From a virus (lineage: Duplodnaviria > Heunggongvirae > Uroviricota > Caudoviricetes): a stretch of DNA of 48,908 nt. Below, piece by piece: positions 12,782 to 16,691 of this stretch. A program made the translations under genes and the position numbers. Position 1 is the stretch's first letter. The number at the start of each line of letters is the position of its first letter. The stretch is taken from positions 1 to 48,908 of the IMG/VR virus record IMGVR_UViG_2897346870_000004. One strand, given 5' to 3'. The notes under the pieces were generated by a model. The model saw nothing but the letters and a program-made list of their open reading frames with translations, had not been told where the DNA came from and searched no databases.

Positions 12782-12828
12782 TTCTGGCACAGGGGAGAGC
12801 TAGCGTGGTTGTCCGCTTTGTGCCAGAA
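12782..12828. repeat. 10-bp perfect inverted repeat TTCTGGCACA / TGTGCCAGAA separated by 27 nt
   Basis: Direct reading; at the left boundary of the AT-rich island, no following T-run. Confidence 0.5.
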
Positions 12829-12942
12829 GCGGAAGTTGCTAAAACGGTTTACCGTGTCCAAAGGAGTCAGGGGCAACAACGCGATATTGCTGACTGAGGT
12901 TTGGATCTAATCCTAGGACATGTCAGGAGCAATGCTAATCTA

Positions 12943-12971
12943 TTCATTAAAGCAGAGTATATGCCTATAAT
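12943..12971 (+). promoter_or_regulatory. Candidate sigma70 promoter (TTCATT, 17-nt spacer, TATAAT)
   Basis: Perfect -10 hexamer with a 17-nt spacer to a weak -35, about 84 bp upstream of the 13055 start. Confidence 0.3.
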
Positions 12972-13054
12972 TTAGAACCTTGCTATGGACATGAAAATGT
13001 GTAACATGCAATAGATCTCTACACACAGCAGGATTCCTACACCAAGGAGTGTTT

Positions 13055-13456
13055 ATGATTAACGAATCCAGTCCTTTCCCAGACAACGAAATTATATCCT
13101 TCTATGACTGTACTGGCATGTCCATTTTTTATCTACATAGTGATGGTGAAAGTTTTTATCACTATGACGGAACCCCACTAGCCTATTTATATAATAATGA
13201 ATATATGGTTTCATATTCAGGTCAGTATTTAGGTTGGCTATATAATGGGAGTATTATAGATTATAAAAATGGGGCTTATGTTTTTTTTACAGCTTATAGT
13301 TCTGGTGGGCCATCGCGACCAAGCCGAAAGTCTCGACCAAGTCGATTATCAAGAAGGAGCAGACCTGCTAAATTAATTCGTAATAGTCGACCGTCACGAC
13401 CTTCAAGACAAACCAGATGGAGCGAGCGAAGCAACATGAGTTTTTTCAGTAGTTAA
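13055..13456 (+). CDS. Hypothetical 133-aa protein: fourfold beta-hairpin-like repeat domain plus Ser/Arg/Pro-rich tail (cassette gene 1)
   Basis: AAGGAG RBS 5 nt before ATG 13055; four repeats of Y-x-x-x-G-x-x-[LIV]-x-[YWF]-[LF] (YDCTGMSIFYL, YDGTPLAYL, YSGQYLGWL, YKNGAYVFF); C-terminal SRPSR repeats; AT-rich. Confidence 0.6.
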   Translation: MINESSPFPDNEIISFYDCTGMSIFYLHSDGESFYHYDGTPLAYLYNNEYMVSYSGQYLGWLYNGSIIDYKNGAYVFFTAYSSGGPSRPSRKSRPSRLSRRSRPAKLIRNSRPSRPSRQTRWSERSNMSFFSS

Positions 13457-13534
13457 ATTCTCGTTGTATTAAAAAATAGATTGATTTGAAAGTTAGCATA
13501 TTTACCTACTATCAAATAATGAAAAGGGTTAAAG

Positions 13535-14950
13535 ATGAGTAATCTTCCTACTACAGTAAATACAACCGCAGTAACCACTGGTGTTGATAATTTCACGACG
13601 TCATTAACTACTTACCTCACCGATTTGAATCTTCCGGCAAACGGCGTTTTAGTCGGCAATGATCAGAGGTACACTGTAATTGATAACTTCCCAAAGGTTA
13701 TTGGTGGTATTGACAGTGCAAGGCTTTCAGATTCGTTATATCTATCAAAGTTTATTGCAGCGTGCGGCGCTGGCCTTTTTGATGCAGCACTAAATTTTTT
13801 ATGGAATGAAACAGTAGTAAATTTGAGATGGAAGGTTTCCCTTAACGATATAGACTATTTTTATGACAGTATTGTCACTGACACAAAAAGAAGAGATAAG
13901 CTTAAAACTGTAGATGATTTAGTTAATATAGAGGAGTGGGAGCTTGTTAAGGGTTGCCACTTAACGGGATTACTTTCGGATATAGGTTTTAAACATCTTG
14001 ATTATATAAGAGATATGAGGAACTGGGCTAGTGCAGCACATCCTAACCAAAGTCAGCTAACAGGATTCATGCTCATCTCATGGCTTGAAACCTGCATCAA
14101 AGAAGTGATTGCGAAAGAACCAGAACCTTCTGCATTACAAATAAAGAGAGTACTATCTAACATCAGAGGCGCTAACTTAGAAGGCGATGACTTAGCCCAT
14201 ATAAAATCTGCGATGGAAAACCTACCTCAAGATGTTGTTGATTCTTTCTTAAGAACTATATTTGGGATGTATACTAATGATAACGCGGCTGTACAGGTTA
14301 AGAATAATATAAAAGGAATTGCAAAAAAATGTTGGGATCTTTCGTCAGAAACTACGAAGTATAGTTGTGGTATAAGATATCAATCTTTTGCAGCTAACGG
14401 AGAGAGAGCTAGGAAAGATGCGGCTAATGAGTTTTTAACTACTGTATCTGGTCTTCCATATCTTCCATCAGACTCTTTGGCTGTTGAAATATCAATCAGA
14501 GTGACAAATTTATACCAAGCCCATTTTGGATGGAATAATTTCCATAATGAACCTGCTCATGCATCCTCTTTGGCAGCATATATCTCCTCTGCTGGGAATG
14601 TCCCTGACTCAGTTCGATTTGAATATGTTAAGACTATAGTTTTGTGTTATTTGGGCAACAGCTATGGAGTGTCTAATATGGCCGTTTCTTACTATGAAGA
14701 AATGATTGGTAAGTTCGGCGAGGCAGAGTTAAAAGAGTTCGTAAAAATAATTTATGATAAAGACGTGATATCTAGGCTTGCAACTCAAACATGTGCTTCT
14801 CGATATAAACATATAGCATCCAATTTTGTTAGCAGAACTACCAATCAAATAACCTCGCAAGCTCTTAATGCGATCATAGCATCGACTGCTCTCCAGTTAC
14901 CGAACCTATCGAAAGCAACGGCCTACGATAAACTTATTCGCTCATACTAA
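13535..14950 (+). CDS. Hypothetical 471-aa protein with HEPN-like R-x6-H motif (candidate abortive-infection effector; cassette gene 2)
   Basis: AAAGGG RBS; co-oriented 78 bp downstream of gene 1; followed by a strong terminator; motif RDMRNWASAAH at residues 159-169; no Walker A; AT-rich. Confidence 0.7.
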   Translation: MSNLPTTVNTTAVTTGVDNFTTSLTTYLTDLNLPANGVLVGNDQRYTVIDNFPKVIGGIDSARLSDSLYLSKFIAACGAGLFDAALNFLWNETVVNLRWKVSLNDIDYFYDSIVTDTKRRDKLKTVDDLVNIEEWELVKGCHLTGLLSDIGFKHLDYIRDMRNWASAAHPNQSQLTGFMLISWLETCIKEVIAKEPEPSALQIKRVLSNIRGANLEGDDLAHIKSAMENLPQDVVDSFLRTIFGMYTNDNAAVQVKNNIKGIAKKCWDLSSETTKYSCGIRYQSFAANGERARKDAANEFLTTVSGLPYLPSDSLAVEISIRVTNLYQAHFGWNNFHNEPAHASSLAAYISSAGNVPDSVRFEYVKTIVLCYLGNSYGVSNMAVSYYEEMIGKFGEAELKEFVKIIYDKDVISRLATQTCASRYKHIASNFVSRTTNQITSQALNAIIASTALQLPNLSKATAYDKLIRSY

Positions 14951-14987
14951 ATACTGTGAGACAAAAACAGGCTTAGATCAGATAACA

Positions 14988-15012
14988 GCCCTCTCTATTC
15001 GAGGGCTTTTTT
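14988..15012 (+). terminator. Rho-independent terminator (GCCCTC stem, 7-nt loop, GAGGGC, TTTTTT)
   Basis: Direct reading, 38 bp after the stop of the 471-aa gene. Confidence 0.65.
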
Positions 15013-15102
15013 GTAGGAATGCTTAATTGAATATCCGCTTTTCGCTCAAAGAGGACTAAAATGTTGGCTTGTTTCTGACTTAGAGCATTTAAGGAAGTGC
15101 TG

Positions 15103-15321
15103 GTGGTGACTGGTTGTTGTGTTCCATTTCTACAGAATAAAATCACAGAAACTATACCCAATAGTTGTATTGAATCACTGACGAGACAGCCTCATATTTA
15201 TCAGGACTGGTGTGCGTCTAATACAGGGGGTTGTCGTGCTGGTTCTCAAATGTGCGCTGGCTATTGCGGCTGTAATGGCAATTTATTGTCTTGCTGTTGT
15301 TCTTATGGAGCGGCTTTCTGA
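15103..15321 (+). CDS. Candidate cysteine-rich small protein (about 72 aa, GTG start)
   Basis: AAGGAA RBS 6 nt before GTG 15103; 11 Cys in about 72 residues (GCC, CAGYCGCNGNLLSCCCS); weak support, possibly spurious. Confidence 0.25.
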   Translation: MVTGCCVPFLQNKITETIPNSCIESLTRQPHIYQDWCASNTGGCRAGSQMCAGYCGCNGNLLSCCCSYGAAF

Positions 15322-15473
15322 TTGATTACATACTGGCTAGAAAAAAGGTGTTACCTTGGTTTATCTTTGTCCGGCAAGGTGCGCTCATTAATCTTAAGTA
15401 AATTTATTGCTCAAGTATTCAGATTACTTCTTATGGTTGAAGTCTCCTGTCAATGTAGAACCAATATATTTAC

Positions 15474-15510
15474 AAAAATGAGACCCGTCGGGGATAGCCC
15501 TGCCGGGTCT
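15474..15510 (-). terminator. Hairpin plus T-run terminator for the YeaR-like gene
   Basis: AGACCCG / CGGGTCT stem followed on the minus strand by CATTTTTG, about 30 nt after the stop. Confidence 0.45.
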
Positions 15511-15539
15511 GACTGTTAAAGCATTTTTAATATGATCAT

Positions 15540-15878
15540 CTATTTTTTGGTGCTATAGACTTTTTCGCCCGAGAAGTCTGGAGCGACCCAAAAGTTAATA
15601 TTAAACTGAGCATCATCGCTTAGTTCAACACGGTGCCAGTATTGTGGTGGGCTTGTTGCAAAAGCGCCAGCATTAATGACTACTTTTATCTCCGGTTCAG
15701 TAGCATTCTCATCAGTAAAACCATAATATGTTACAGTGCCTTCCATTACGCACAACTGCCCAAAAACACCTGCTGCTGTATTATGATGTGTTAATAACGC
15801 TGAAGGTACGTTCTCTTTTGTGAAGAACGGAGTTGAGCGTTTGATTACCCAATCTTTAGGAATTCTCTTGTGTGTCAT
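15540..15878 (-). CDS. YeaR-like (DUF1971 / TehB C-terminal-like) protein, 112 aa
   Basis: AGGAGG RBS; motifs RSTPFF, VMEGTVTYYG, EPEIKVVINAGAFATSPPQYWH, FNINFWVAPD resemble my recollection of YeaR; AT-rich moron on the opposite strand to neighbours. Confidence 0.7.
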   Translation of the reverse strand: MTHKRIPKDWVIKRSTPFFTKENVPSALLTHHNTAAGVFGQLCVMEGTVTYYGFTDENATEPEIKVVINAGAFATSPPQYWHRVELSDDAQFNINFWVAPDFSGEKVYSTKK

Positions 15879-15893
15879 AACCACCTCCTCAAA

Positions 15894-15916
15894 AACATGC
15901 ATTATAAATGCGTGTT
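15894..15916. promoter_or_regulatory. NsrR-like 11-1-11 inverted repeat AACATGCATTA-T-AAATGCGTGTT with a TATAAT at its centre on the minus strand
   Basis: Direct reading; 16 bp upstream of the YeaR-like start; resembles the NsrR operator consensus as I recall it (AAnATGCATTT-n-AAATGCATnTT). Confidence 0.4.
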
Positions 15917-16203
15917 TTTGAGGGTTATGTCAAGCTGTTATGAAACACATAATTGATATGTTGATTAGAGGAGAAGATATAATAAATATGGTTGTTTTTC
16001 GTATAACTATTTGTTTTACTTTTAGTTTATGCATTCTGTGTGTTAGGAATAAGTTATTAAAGTTTAATCAAAAAATCTCGATGTAGTCCACATAGATTAT
16101 TGTTACTGAACCTTATTGTGTGTATTAGTTGTGTTCTGAAATTTCAGCTTAATTATTTATGATGTATTTTTTAACGATAAATATTTTCCCAGGATACCTT
16201 TAC

Positions 16204-16230
16204 TGTGTATATAAATAAATTATATACACA
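16204..16230. repeat. 27-bp palindrome TGTGTATATAA-ATAAA-TTATATACACA
   Basis: 11-bp perfect arms with 5-nt spacer inside a roughly 790-bp AT-rich non-coding stretch. Confidence 0.6.
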
Positions 16231-16691
16231 TAAATAATGTAAAGGCGTCCTTTTAGATATATCTTATCAAATGTTAATGACTTGAGTGGGAAATATGATT
16301 CCAGCAACTTATCATGTGGCTACTTTATAAAAATAATGCCCATATAAAACAACAAGCGAAAAGGATTACGGATAAAAAAGGAGCGAGATGTGCGAACTTG
16401 TTATTTTCCATGTTTAACCACCTTAAATAATTGATGATGACGGGATGATTGCATCTGTAATGCTTTTATTGAAATGTTATGATAAAAAAGAACTTTTGCA
16501 TAACATTAAAATGTAATTTATCTAATCGTTTTTAATAATAAATGTCGTATTTCTATCCTTGTACCAGCTATTTGATATGTAGTGTTTGTTCATGCTATGT
16601 GGGGCTTTACACCATAGCCAGTTTATTTATACTTTATTCGTCAGCCTGAACAACTGGCATCTGCTGCGCTGCGCCATCGAGAGATTGAGAA

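What the first reader, a model, noticed from the sequence alone, without database searches (positions are those of the whole stretch)
13091..13432. Small cassette protein: fourfold repeat domain plus Ser/Arg/Pro-rich tail encoded by DNA-level repeats
Seen: residues 13-78 contain four similar units (YDCTGMSIFYL, YDGTPLAYL, YSGQYLGWL, YKNGAYVFF), suggesting a repeated beta-hairpin fold. Residues 86-126 are a low-complexity GGPSRPSRKSRPSRLSRRSRPAKLIRNSRPSRPSRQTRW tail, and the underlying DNA carries repeated TCGACCAAG-type units. A compact repeat domain joined to a basic disordered tail could be a nucleic-acid or surface binding partner (sensor, antitoxin or regulator) for the 471-aa protein. The role is inference.
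Basis: partly seen in the sequence, partly recalled or inferred. Interest (0 to 1): 0.5.

Follow-up and report, generated by a model that had tools for sequence, protein, structure and literature searches.

The report
Prophage 4-fold beta-flower protein gene
This small gene in an E. coli Rac-like prophage encodes a known but mechanistically unexplained "4-fold beta-flower" protein, a family with one experimentally shown anti-phage member, and its Ser/Arg/Pro tail is a conserved, probably folded part of the protein rather than a floppy tail or a DNA repeat.

Summary
The ORF at 13055-13456 (+) encodes 133 aa. Residues 14-78 form four homologous beta-hairpins, and residues 84-122 form a basic Ser/Arg/Pro region. 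The protein matches Pfam PF21784 (Bflower, 93 bits against a cut-off of 25), and RefSeq already names it "4-fold beta flower protein".

- **The tail is not low-complexity filler.** It is conserved across the whole family and under purifying selection. AlphaFold2 with a deep alignment predicts it as ordered (pLDDT 95-98). It consists of about 12 triplets of the form x-h-[R/K], with a Pro every 9 residues (4 x 9).
- **The DNA repeats are trivial.** Tandem Repeats Finder finds nothing, and the Ser and Arg codons are mixed.
- **The 471-aa neighbour is not a conserved partner.** The two genes travel together only in one closely related 2.2-kb cassette lineage. Each is also found without the other.

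Best explanation: a self-contained prophage moron with its own upstream leader, probably a single-gene anti-phage protein like the PF21784 cassette Cernunnos of Vibrio cholerae. It would act by binding through a ring of basic residues. That mechanism is inferred, not shown.

Verdict: a new member of a known kind, of moderate interest. The unexplained point is that the middle residue of the tail triplets is uniform within each protein but differs between proteins.

The parts
12821..13054 (+). Conserved upstream leader that travels with the beta-flower gene. It contains an invariant TATAAT at 12966-12971 (likely -10 box) and the Shine-Dalgarno AAGGAG at 13044-13049.
   Evidence: Homology with four other elements (IMG/VR contig L015, Proteus L019, Pectobacterium L002, an Enterobacter remnant L012) starts at about 12821 in all of them. 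TATAAT is invariant in the four enterobacterial sequences. No -35 box reaches the scan threshold. No RNA structure is supported and there is no Rfam match.
13055..13456 (+). CDS of the 133-aa 4-fold beta-flower protein (stop codon at 13454-13456).
   Evidence: Pfam PF21784, E = 2e-26, 93.1 bits against a cut-off of 25, profile positions 2-116 of 116. RefSeq annotates the 98.5% identical copy WP_134737087.1 as '4-fold beta flower protein'. The exact protein is held by NCBI under the same name on 33 contigs. dN/dS is 0.05-0.31.
13094..13288 (+). Residues 14-78: eight beta-strands forming four homologous hairpins (the 'petals'). This part is acidic and rich in aromatic residues.
   Evidence: AlphaFold2 strands in both models. 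hhalign between hairpin profiles gives P from 8e-10 to 2.5e-7. Residues 1-85 have pI 4.05 and 20 F/Y/W.
13304..13420 (+). Residues 84-122: GGP followed by about 12 triplets x-h-[R/K], with Pro at 86, 95, 104 and 113 (four 9-residue units). This is the basic 'belt'.
   Evidence: Alignments A1 and A2 and the column counts over 199 family sequences. pLDDT is 95-98 with the deep alignment, with no regular secondary structure. Codons are heterogeneous and dN/dS is low.
13418..13447 (+). Residues 122-131: C-terminal motif W-S-x2-S-x3-F-F.
   Evidence: W122 and S123 are invariant in 95 diverse sequences. S126, F130 and F131 are nearly invariant in the close subfamily. The model shows a beta-bridge at 122 and a short helix at 128-131.
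13535..14950 (+). Neighbouring 471-aa protein of unknown function. It is in the same cassette but is an independent module.
   Evidence: No Pfam, NCBIfam or PADLOC match; it matches phrog_27609 (unknown function) at E = 1.9e-74. Homologues occur without a beta-flower gene. Its 90% identity cluster has 114 members across Enterobacterales.
14987..15013 (+). Terminator-like hairpin followed by a T-run, closing the two-gene cassette. Cassette homology ends at about 15050.
   Evidence: The scan finds 7 pairs, 5 of them G-C, followed by TTTTTT. The element is conserved in L015 and L019, after which the sequences diverge.

Best explanation
The ORF is a real, expressed-type gene for a cytoplasmic member of the 4-fold beta-flower family (PF21784). 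It sits as a foreign, low-GC 'moron' between the replication genes and the nin-like genes of an E. coli Rac-like prophage.

**Shown:**
- The protein has four homologous beta-hairpins forming a small acidic barrel.
- The barrel is followed by a conserved basic region of about 12 x-h-[R/K] triplets, arranged as four 9-residue units each starting with Pro.
- The protein ends in a W-S...F-F motif.
- The basic region is selected at the protein level and is predicted to be ordered.

**Inferred structure:**
- The 36-residue basic region leaves the barrel after strand 8 and returns to it at W122.
- It therefore forms one extended, polyproline-II-like loop that could encircle the 4-fold barrel, one 9-residue unit per petal.
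- This would present a ring of about 12 Arg/Lys residues.

**Inferred function:**
- The gene is a self-contained unit with its own leader.
- In the lysogen it probably acts as a single-protein anti-phage or exclusion factor, like the PF21784 cassette Cernunnos of Vibrio cholerae.
- It has no catalytic motif, so it would act by binding, not by catalysis. The basic ring would bind a polyanionic target: phage or host nucleic acid, or the anionic inner-membrane surface. The membrane option follows the functional hypothesis drawn from the Tubby/scramblase clan.
- The adjacent 471-aa gene would be a separate defence-type gene that happens to share the cassette.
For: **Family membership and reality of the gene**
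- Pfam match and RefSeq annotation.
- 413 representatives at E <= 1e-3 in 1.84 billion proteins, most matching profile positions 14-132, so the tail is part of the family.

**Fold and tail**
- Tail selected as protein.
- Net positive charge is only weakly compensated by the domain: rho = -0.19, mean total charge +3.5.

**Foreign origin**
- GC is 36-41% against about 50% in the flanks.

**Autonomy**
- The leader plus the gene alone are shared with Pectobacterium at 80% identity.
- Nothing else is shared among 8 genomes.
- The gene occurs as a single insertion between housekeeping genes.

**Defence context in four distant lineages**
- AbiTii in a prophage.
- PADLOC candidate PDC-S46 (E = 4.6e-274), with HEPN_AbiV and SLFN_AlbA_2, in Ca. 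Scalindua.
- HEPN_RiboL-PSP and an AriAB-like ATPase in Luteolibacter.
- SMODS plus S_4TM in the Proteus island.

**Literature**
- Cernunnos is a single-gene cassette with PF21784 that protects against phage, and its homologues are reported preferentially in Escherichia prophages (10.1101/2024.07.02.601686).
- Cernunnos was recovered again in an independent phage selection (10.64898/2026.03.17.712381).
Against: - There is no functional assay of this protein.
- I could not retrieve the Cernunnos sequence, so I do not know how close it is. No Vibrio protein appeared in the searches.
- PADLOC has no model that matches.
- The family also occurs in stable, housekeeping-like neighbourhoods in MAGs, in phage-like contigs and as exported lipoproteins. 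The fold is therefore a general binding module, and defence is not guaranteed for every member.
- The gene is always next to the 471-aa gene in E. coli.
- The belt geometry is my inference from lengths and periodicity, because no coordinates were available.
- The ordered tail rests on one AlphaFold2 run. The shallow alignment gave pLDDT of about 50 for the tail.
- The polyanion target is a guess.
Confidence: 0.5

Rival explanations
1. The beta-flower protein is an accessory subunit (sensor, regulator or antitoxin) of a two-gene system with the 471-aa protein. More generally, it could be a promiscuous adaptor that pairs with different effector proteins.
For: - The same strand, a 78-bp gap, no terminator between the genes and one terminator after the pair.
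- The pair is shared as one 2.2-kb block at 92-94% identity by an E. coli prophage, an IMG/VR viral contig and a Proteus island, with equal dS of 0.17 for both genes.
- In all 10 E. coli contexts read, the two genes are adjacent.
- Elsewhere the gene lies 38-84 bp from, and co-directional with, a defence-type gene: AbiTii, PDC-S46 or HEPN_RiboL-PSP.
- The 471-aa protein carries a fully conserved R162-N-x5-H169 motif that resembles a HEPN RNase motif. This is a lead only.
Against: - No partner family is conserved.
- 471-aa homologues at 66% identity stand alone, with 1.3 kb free of ORFs upstream.
- The Pectobacterium copy at 85% identity keeps the leader but has no 471-aa gene.
- The beta-flower gene is frameshifted in Proteus while the 471-aa gene stays at 97% identity.
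- Single-gene insertions exist.
- Cernunnos is reported as a single-gene system.
- The three shared cassettes are one recent lineage, so their linkage may be inheritance only.
- The HEPN idea found no support in Pfam or hhalign.
Confidence: 0.2
2. It is a beta-flower protein with a non-defence role, for example a general membrane-associated, envelope-associated or nucleic-acid-associated structural protein. On this reading it is carried passively by the prophage, and its neighbours are coincidental.
For: - The family is found in bacteria, archaeal MAGs and phages, with conserved non-mobile synteny in some MAGs.
- Some members have lipoprotein signal peptides and tandem duplications.
- The authors who described the fold proposed a lipid-binding or scramblase-like role from its resemblance to Tubby (PMC10584680).
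- Protein evolution is faster than in the neighbouring gene (omega 0.29 against 0.05), and occasional frameshifts occur.
Against: - The close subfamily (59-95% identity) jumps between Gammaproteobacteria, Desulfobacterota, Planctomycetota and Verrucomicrobiota. It sits in prophages and defence islands.
- A PF21784 cassette has a demonstrated anti-phage phenotype.
Confidence: 0.2
3. The tail is an intrinsically disordered, protamine-like or RS-like region that binds nucleic acid non-specifically. On this reading the confident AlphaFold2 model is an artefact.
For: - Extreme composition: 15 K+R in 48 residues, pI 12.
- The shallow-alignment model gives pLDDT of about 50 for the tail.
- DSSP assigns no secondary structure.
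- The class of the middle residue does not covary with any column of the domain.
Against: - Exact register and length are conserved over 199 sequences, with near-invariant Pro at six positions and R/K at fixed positions.
- pLDDT is 95-98 in all five models with the deep alignment.
- The middle residue can be V, I, L, M or F throughout, which is not typical of disordered regions.
- The same tail is present in exported lipoprotein members, which have no access to cytoplasmic nucleic acid.
Confidence: 0.1

Closest known systems
Pfam PF21784 'Bflower', the 4-fold beta-flower proteins (Durairaj et al. 2023, Nature, PMC10584680)
   Same: Full-length match well above the gathering score. Eight short antiparallel strands in four hairpins. 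Aromatic-rich barrel. The C-terminal region is covered by the profile. No PDB relative, as the authors also reported.
   Different: Nothing places it outside the family. The paper does not describe the periodic basic tail of this family and gives no function. The long loops rich in basic residues that it describes belong to a 5-fold example, which has a different topology.
Cernunnos, the single-gene anti-phage integron cassette of Vibrio cholerae N16961 (Darracq et al. 2024, bioRxiv 10.1101/2024.07.02.601686)
   Same: It carries a PF21784 domain. It is a small single gene. Homologues are reported mainly in Escherichia prophages. It is mobile and surrounded by other defence genes.
   Different: Here the gene lies in a prophage moron with its own leader, not in an attC cassette. 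No phenotype is known for this copy.
Tubby C-terminal domain and phospholipid scramblase-like proteins (Pfam clan CL0395)
   Same: The same Pfam clan as the beta-flower families. A closed barrel built from repeated hairpins with an aromatic network. Basic surface residues used for binding anionic lipids in Tubby.
Two-component lactococcal abortive infection system AbiT (AbiTi plus AbiTii)
   Same: One homologue (L021) lies 38 bp downstream of an AbiTii-domain gene, and it is similar in size to AbiTi (127 aa).
   Different: AbiTi is predicted to be endoribonuclease-like, not a beta-flower (PMC13064643). No PADLOC model matches the beta-flower proteins. The 471-aa neighbour here has no AbiTii domain.

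Membership tests
PF21784 4-fold beta-flower | Match to the Pfam profile above the gathering score, over the full length | tested here: met
   93.1 bits against a cut-off of 25; residues 15-131 match profile positions 2-116 of 116.
PF21784 4-fold beta-flower | Eight short antiparallel strands arranged as four hairpins (4-fold symmetry) | tested here: met
   AlphaFold2 predicts strands 14-17, 23-27, 33-36, 41-46, 50-53, 58-63, 66-69 and 75-78, at pLDDT 95 or more with the deep alignment. The hairpin profiles are homologous to one another. The symmetry itself could not be inspected because no coordinates were available.
PF21784 4-fold beta-flower | Semiconserved [DNEQ]xxG motif at the hairpin tips | tested here: inconclusive
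   The exact motif occurs only in hairpin 1 (D18-C-T-G21). The other tips carry D38-G39, S55-G56 and N72-G73. G21, G39, G56 and G73 are invariant or nearly invariant.
PF21784 4-fold beta-flower | No relative among solved structures (described as a new fold) | tested here: met
Cernunnos anti-phage system | Carries a PF21784 domain | tested here: met
   domain statement in 10.1101/2024.07.02.601686.
Cernunnos anti-phage system | blastp-level homology to the V. cholerae N16961 cassette protein (the criterion the authors used) | not testable with these tools
   The sequence and locus tag were not in the held text or supplement. No Vibrio protein was among the hits.
Cernunnos anti-phage system | A single gene is sufficient | tested here: inconclusive
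   The gene travels alone in at least 8 genomes. In E. coli it is always beside the 471-aa gene. Sufficiency needs an experiment.
Cernunnos anti-phage system | Protects against phage infection | not testable with these tools
   Needs plaque assays.
Two-gene toxin-antitoxin or sensor-effector operon with the 471-aa protein | Conserved co-occurrence of the two families across divergent homologues | tested here: not met
   The genes co-occur only in one cassette lineage at 92-94% DNA identity. They are absent from each other's more distant homologues.
Tubby / scramblase-like domain | 12-stranded barrel enclosing a central hydrophobic helix | tested here: not met
Intrinsically disordered basic (RS- or protamine-like) tail | No fixed structure; composition conserved rather than positions | tested here: not met
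   Positions are conserved. pLDDT is 95-98. This rests on prediction only.

The most novel reading that the evidence does not exclude
The beta-flower barrel together with its periodic Arg/Lys region may be a previously undescribed minimal recognition module.
- The basic region would be an ordered, polyproline-II-like belt of four 9-residue units around a 4-fold barrel.
- One stripe of this belt, the middle residue of each triplet, is kept uniform within a protein: all S, A, V, I, L, M, F or G. It is free to differ between proteins.
- That pattern would fit a periodic binding surface that reads a repetitive polymer (nucleic acid backbone, lipid head groups or a phage structural lattice). It could also fit a self-assembling protein.
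- The module could work alone as a phage sensor-effector, or be plugged next to different HEPN or ATPase effectors.
Probability: 0.2. Interest if true: 0.65.

Novelty: new member of a known kind. Interest (0 to 1): 0.4.

Why it matters
Beta-flower proteins were named only in 2023 from predicted structures. One member has since been shown to protect bacteria from phages, but nobody knows how a protein of about 120 residues without an enzyme domain does this.

This copy sits in a natural E. coli prophage with its own leader. It therefore offers a directly testable case in the best-equipped phage-host system. The conserved, periodic basic region gives clear mutants to make: an arginine-ladder mutant, swaps of the middle residue, and a tail deletion.

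For annotation, the result is a caution. An apparently low-complexity Ser/Arg/Pro tail can be an ordered, selected part of a fold. Adjacency in one cassette lineage is also not evidence of a functional pair.

Tried and rejected
- **DNA-level repeat or slippage origin of the tail.** Rejected: no tandem repeat, mixed codons, and synonymous sites near saturation.
- **Non-coding region or antisense ORF 13294-13437.** Rejected, because selection acts on the + frame and the family is large.
- **RNA element in the conserved leader 12821-12925.** No Rfam hit and no covariation.
- **AbiTi identity.** Rejected.
- **HEPN assignment of the 471-aa protein.** Only a motif resemblance. Pfam, the PDB sequence search and hhalign against three HEPN neighbours gave nothing, although these tests were underpowered.
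- **Contact inference for the tail by mean-field DCA on 180 sequences.** The output was dominated by local and gap artefacts and was unusable.
- **Covariation of the tail middle-residue class with domain columns.** Maximum z = 3.8, unconvincing.
- **Charge compensation between domain and tail.** Weak.
- **Retrieval of the Cernunnos sequence.** The supplement is truncated and the names are absent. Profile searches did not surface a Vibrio protein.
- **Foldseek against AFDB.** The library was not available.
- **Pseudogenisation in E. coli.** It looked frequent from the gene calls, but re-reading the DNA showed only 1 clear frameshift in 10 contexts, possibly an assembly error.
- **Proline-rich antimicrobial peptides (ribosome-tunnel binders).** I considered a resemblance of the tail to these. 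I did not pursue it, because Pro content is only about 15% and exported family members carry the same tail.

Full report
**Where the window comes from**

The window is a Rac-like lambdoid prophage of Escherichia coli. It matches E. coli LSN03-016011/A at 99.9% over the region of the finding. There the prophage is integrated next to ttcA and carries intR, recET, kilR, ydaT, ydaU and ydaV.

The finding lies in a stretch with 36-41% GC, falling to 28%, at about 12800-16600. This stretch sits between the replication genes (ydaU, ydaV, DUF1627, DUF977) and the nin-like genes (DUF1367, DUF1364), whose GC is about 50%. That position is a typical 'moron' slot for foreign cargo.

**Check of the observation**

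- The ORF runs 13055-13456 on the + strand, with ATG at 13055 and AAGGAG at 13044-13049.
- The finding's coordinates 13091-13432 are residues 13-126 in this numbering.
- The four quoted units are at residues 17-27, 37-45, 54-62 and 70-78. Each coincides with one beta-hairpin in both AlphaFold2 models.
- I cut the family alignment into four hairpin profiles and compared them with hhalign. This gives P = 4e-9 (1 vs 2), 8e-10 (2 vs 3) and 2.5e-7 (1 vs 4). The repeats are therefore homologous, not a chance resemblance.
- The tail string is present at residues 84-122.
- The claim of DNA-level repeats does not hold:
  - Tandem Repeats Finder finds nothing.
  - The only direct repeat in the tail is one 15-nt pair at 87% identity.
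  - TCGACCAAG with up to 1 mismatch is no more frequent in the window than in shuffles.
  - The Ser and Arg codons are mixed, including both TCN and AGY Ser codons.

**What it is**

The protein matches Pfam PF21784 (Bflower, '4-fold beta flower protein') at 93.1 bits against a cut-off of 25, over profile positions 2-116 of 116. RefSeq already uses that name for the copy in strain LSN03-016011/A. The exact protein of the window is held by NCBI under the same name on 33 contigs.

**The tail is a conserved, periodic and probably ordered part of the fold**

- *Conservation in close relatives.* In 23 relatives at 59-95% identity the tail aligns without gaps. S87, P89, P95, R100, S102-P104, P113-R118, W122, S123, S126, F130 and F131 are nearly invariant.
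- *Extent in the wider family.* A full HMMER scan of 1.84 billion representatives finds 413 family members at E <= 1e-3 and 128 at E <= 1e-10. Most are 115-125 aa and match profile positions 14-132. The tail therefore belongs to the family as a whole.
- *Periodicity.* Over 199 aligned sequences the pattern is GGP followed by about 12 triplets x-h-[R/K]. R/K dominates at positions 88, 91, 97, 100, 106, 109 and 115. Pro is present in 114-169 sequences at positions 86, 89, 95, 104, 113 and 116. Pro at 86, 95, 104 and 113 gives an exact period of 9, that is four 9-residue units. The region ends at the invariant W122-S123.
- *Selection.* dN/dS in the tail is 0.05-0.31, like the domain (0.05-0.15). 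Synonymous sites are close to saturation.
- *Predicted order.* With a 24-sequence alignment AlphaFold2 left the tail at pLDDT of about 50. With 95 diverse sequences all five models reach a mean pLDDT of 94-95 and pTM 0.88. The tail is at 95-98, has no regular secondary structure, and shows a beta-bridge at W122 and a short helix at 128-131.

I could not see coordinates. My inference from lengths is as follows. A 36-residue extended loop that leaves the barrel after strand 8 and returns at W122 is about long enough to encircle an 8-stranded barrel once. That would place one 9-residue unit on each petal.

The domain is acidic (pI 4.05) and the tail basic (pI 12.0). Across the family, charge compensation between them is weak (rho = -0.19, mean net charge +3.5). 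Much of the positive charge should therefore remain available.

**An unexplained regularity**

The middle residue of the triplets is uniform within a protein but differs between proteins. It is S here, A in L011, V in L010, P0038 and P0054, M in P0024, I in P0043, L in P0057 and P0080, F/Y in P0084, and G in P0065.

The fraction of identical pairs among these 11 positions is 0.310. Column shuffles give 0.090 +/- 0.003. The codons are heterogeneous in the S, V and A types, so this is selection and not repeat homogenisation. The residue class does not covary convincingly with any column of the domain.

**Is the 471-aa protein its partner?**

*For:*
- The genes are 78 bp apart on the same strand. 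There is no terminator-like site between them and one good site after the pair.
- The block 12821-15050 is shared at 94% identity with an IMG/VR viral contig and at 92.6% with an integrase-bearing island next to smpB in Proteus mirabilis. The flanks are unrelated in both cases.
- dS is the same for both genes, at 0.17.
- In all ten E. coli contexts read, the two genes are adjacent.

*Against:*
- These three cassettes are one recent lineage.
- The Pectobacterium copy (85% protein identity) shares the leader and the gene (window 12809-13446, 80% identity) but has no 471-aa homologue.
- Among eight genomes, nothing within 4.5 kb is shared except the beta-flower gene.
- 471-aa homologues at 66% identity have no beta-flower gene within 4 kb, and have 1.3 kb free of ORFs upstream.
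- In Proteus the beta-flower gene is frameshifted near codon 33 in five contigs, while the 471-aa gene stays 97% identical.
- The 471-aa protein's 90% cluster has 114 members across Enterobacterales, against 22 for the beta-flower protein.

I conclude that these are two independent modules sharing a cassette. A looser adaptor role cannot be excluded.

**Context elsewhere**

The close subfamily occurs in Pectobacterium, Proteus, Erwinia, Shewanella, Pseudomonas, Vreelandella, Desulfotalea, Ca. Scalindua and Luteolibacter. This spread is a sign of horizontal transfer. Its neighbours are as follows:

- An AbiTii-domain gene inside a prophage.
- The PADLOC candidate PDC-S46 (E = 4.6e-274), with HEPN_AbiV and SLFN_AlbA_2 nearby.
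- HEPN_RiboL-PSP and an AriAB-like ATPase.
- SMODS plus S_4TM.

Other copies are single insertions between housekeeping genes. Some lie in conserved chromosomal neighbourhoods of MAGs. Some are on phage or phage-like DNA. Some family members carry lipoprotein signal peptides or two tandem copies of domain plus tail.

**Literature link**

- Darracq et al. tested 88 integron cassettes of V. cholerae N16961. [quoted passage not shown] Its homologues are reported to be found preferentially in Escherichia prophages. The mechanism is unknown (10.1101/2024.07.02.601686).
- Cernunnos was recovered again in an independent selection with ICP2 or T4 (10.64898/2026.03.17.712381).
- I could not obtain its sequence. 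Membership in Cernunnos, as opposed to PF21784, is therefore untested.
- AbiTi, the small partner of AbiTii in Lactococcus, is predicted to be endoribonuclease-like and is not a beta-flower (PMC13064643).

**Verdict**

- It is not supported on disorder of the tail or on partnership with the 471-aa protein.
- The most likely reading is a stand-alone, Cernunnos-like prophage defence gene that acts through a basic binding surface (confidence about 0.5).
- The mechanism is inference. The family and its anti-phage potential are already known, so this is a new member of a known kind.
- The periodic, apparently ordered basic region, with its uniform middle residue within each protein, is the one feature I did not find described in the literature I could search.

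Noticed in passing
window 13535-14950: The 471-aa neighbour has no Pfam, NCBIfam or PADLOC match and matches only phrog_27609 (unknown function). In homologues at 66% identity, a block including D156-Y-I-R-D-M-R162-N-W-A-S-A-A-H169-P-N-Q is 100% conserved. The R-N-x5-H spacing resembles a HEPN RNase motif. Its 90% cluster has 114 members across Escherichia, Klebsiella, Enterobacter, Proteus and Morganella.
   Followed up: partly
window 12821-15050; L015 4763-6991; L019 5706-7937: The same 2.2-kb two-gene cassette occurs at 92-94% identity in three unrelated mobile backgrounds, with sharp common end points. The backgrounds are an E. coli Rac-like prophage, an IMG/VR viral contig, and a Proteus mirabilis integrase island at smpB lying next to SMODS plus S_4TM genes. 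I did not look for flanking repeats that could explain how it moves.
   Followed up: partly
window 12821-12925: A leader of about 100 nt upstream of the likely promoter is conserved at about 80% in five enterobacterial elements, including a remnant in Enterobacter chinensis (L012) that keeps only the leader and the first 17 codons. There is no conserved ORF, no Rfam hit and no covariation support for an RNA structure. Its role is unknown.
   Followed up: partly
family alignment (residues 87-117 of the window protein); P0038, P0043, P0065, P0084 and others: The middle residue of the tail triplets is uniform within each protein but differs between proteins (S, A, V, I, L, M, F/Y, G). The identical-pair fraction is 0.310 against 0.090 in shuffles. 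Codons are heterogeneous, so this is not repeat homogenisation. No explanation so far.
   Followed up: partly
L019/L020 5952-6345; L032 3022-3225: The beta-flower gene is frameshifted near codon 33 in Proteus mirabilis (five contigs). It is frameshifted at codon 65 in one E. coli NCTC assembly, which may be an assembly error. Cluster members of 51-68 aa also exist. Between the window and L015, omega is 0.29 for this gene against 0.05 for the neighbouring gene.
   Followed up: yes
P0044, P0081, P0082, P0083, P0090, P0135 (family members): Some family members have lipoprotein-type signal peptides, and some carry two tandem copies of barrel plus basic tail. The whole module therefore also works outside the cytoplasm.
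   Followed up: no
window 15540-15902 (-) and 15900-16600: A DUF1971/TehB-like 120-aa gene lies on the opposite strand just after the cassette. It is followed by a 28-30% GC stretch of about 700 bp with no sizeable ORF, before the DUF1367 gene. This is probably further foreign cargo in the same slot.
   Followed up: no
L003 3737-5917; L004 1494-3674: In Ca. Scalindua the beta-flower gene lies 84 bp downstream of a 726-aa protein that matches the PADLOC candidate defence family PDC-S46 over its full length (E = 4.6e-274). HEPN_AbiV, SLFN_AlbA_2 and an HD-domain gene are nearby.
   Followed up: partly
L014 4004-4339 (Rhizobium phage RHph_TM3_3_3); L024 6001-6390: Beta-flower genes also occur in a sequenced Rhizobium phage (35% identity) and in a phage-like metagenomic contig among DNA ligase and polymerase genes. 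Phages themselves therefore carry the module.
   Followed up: no
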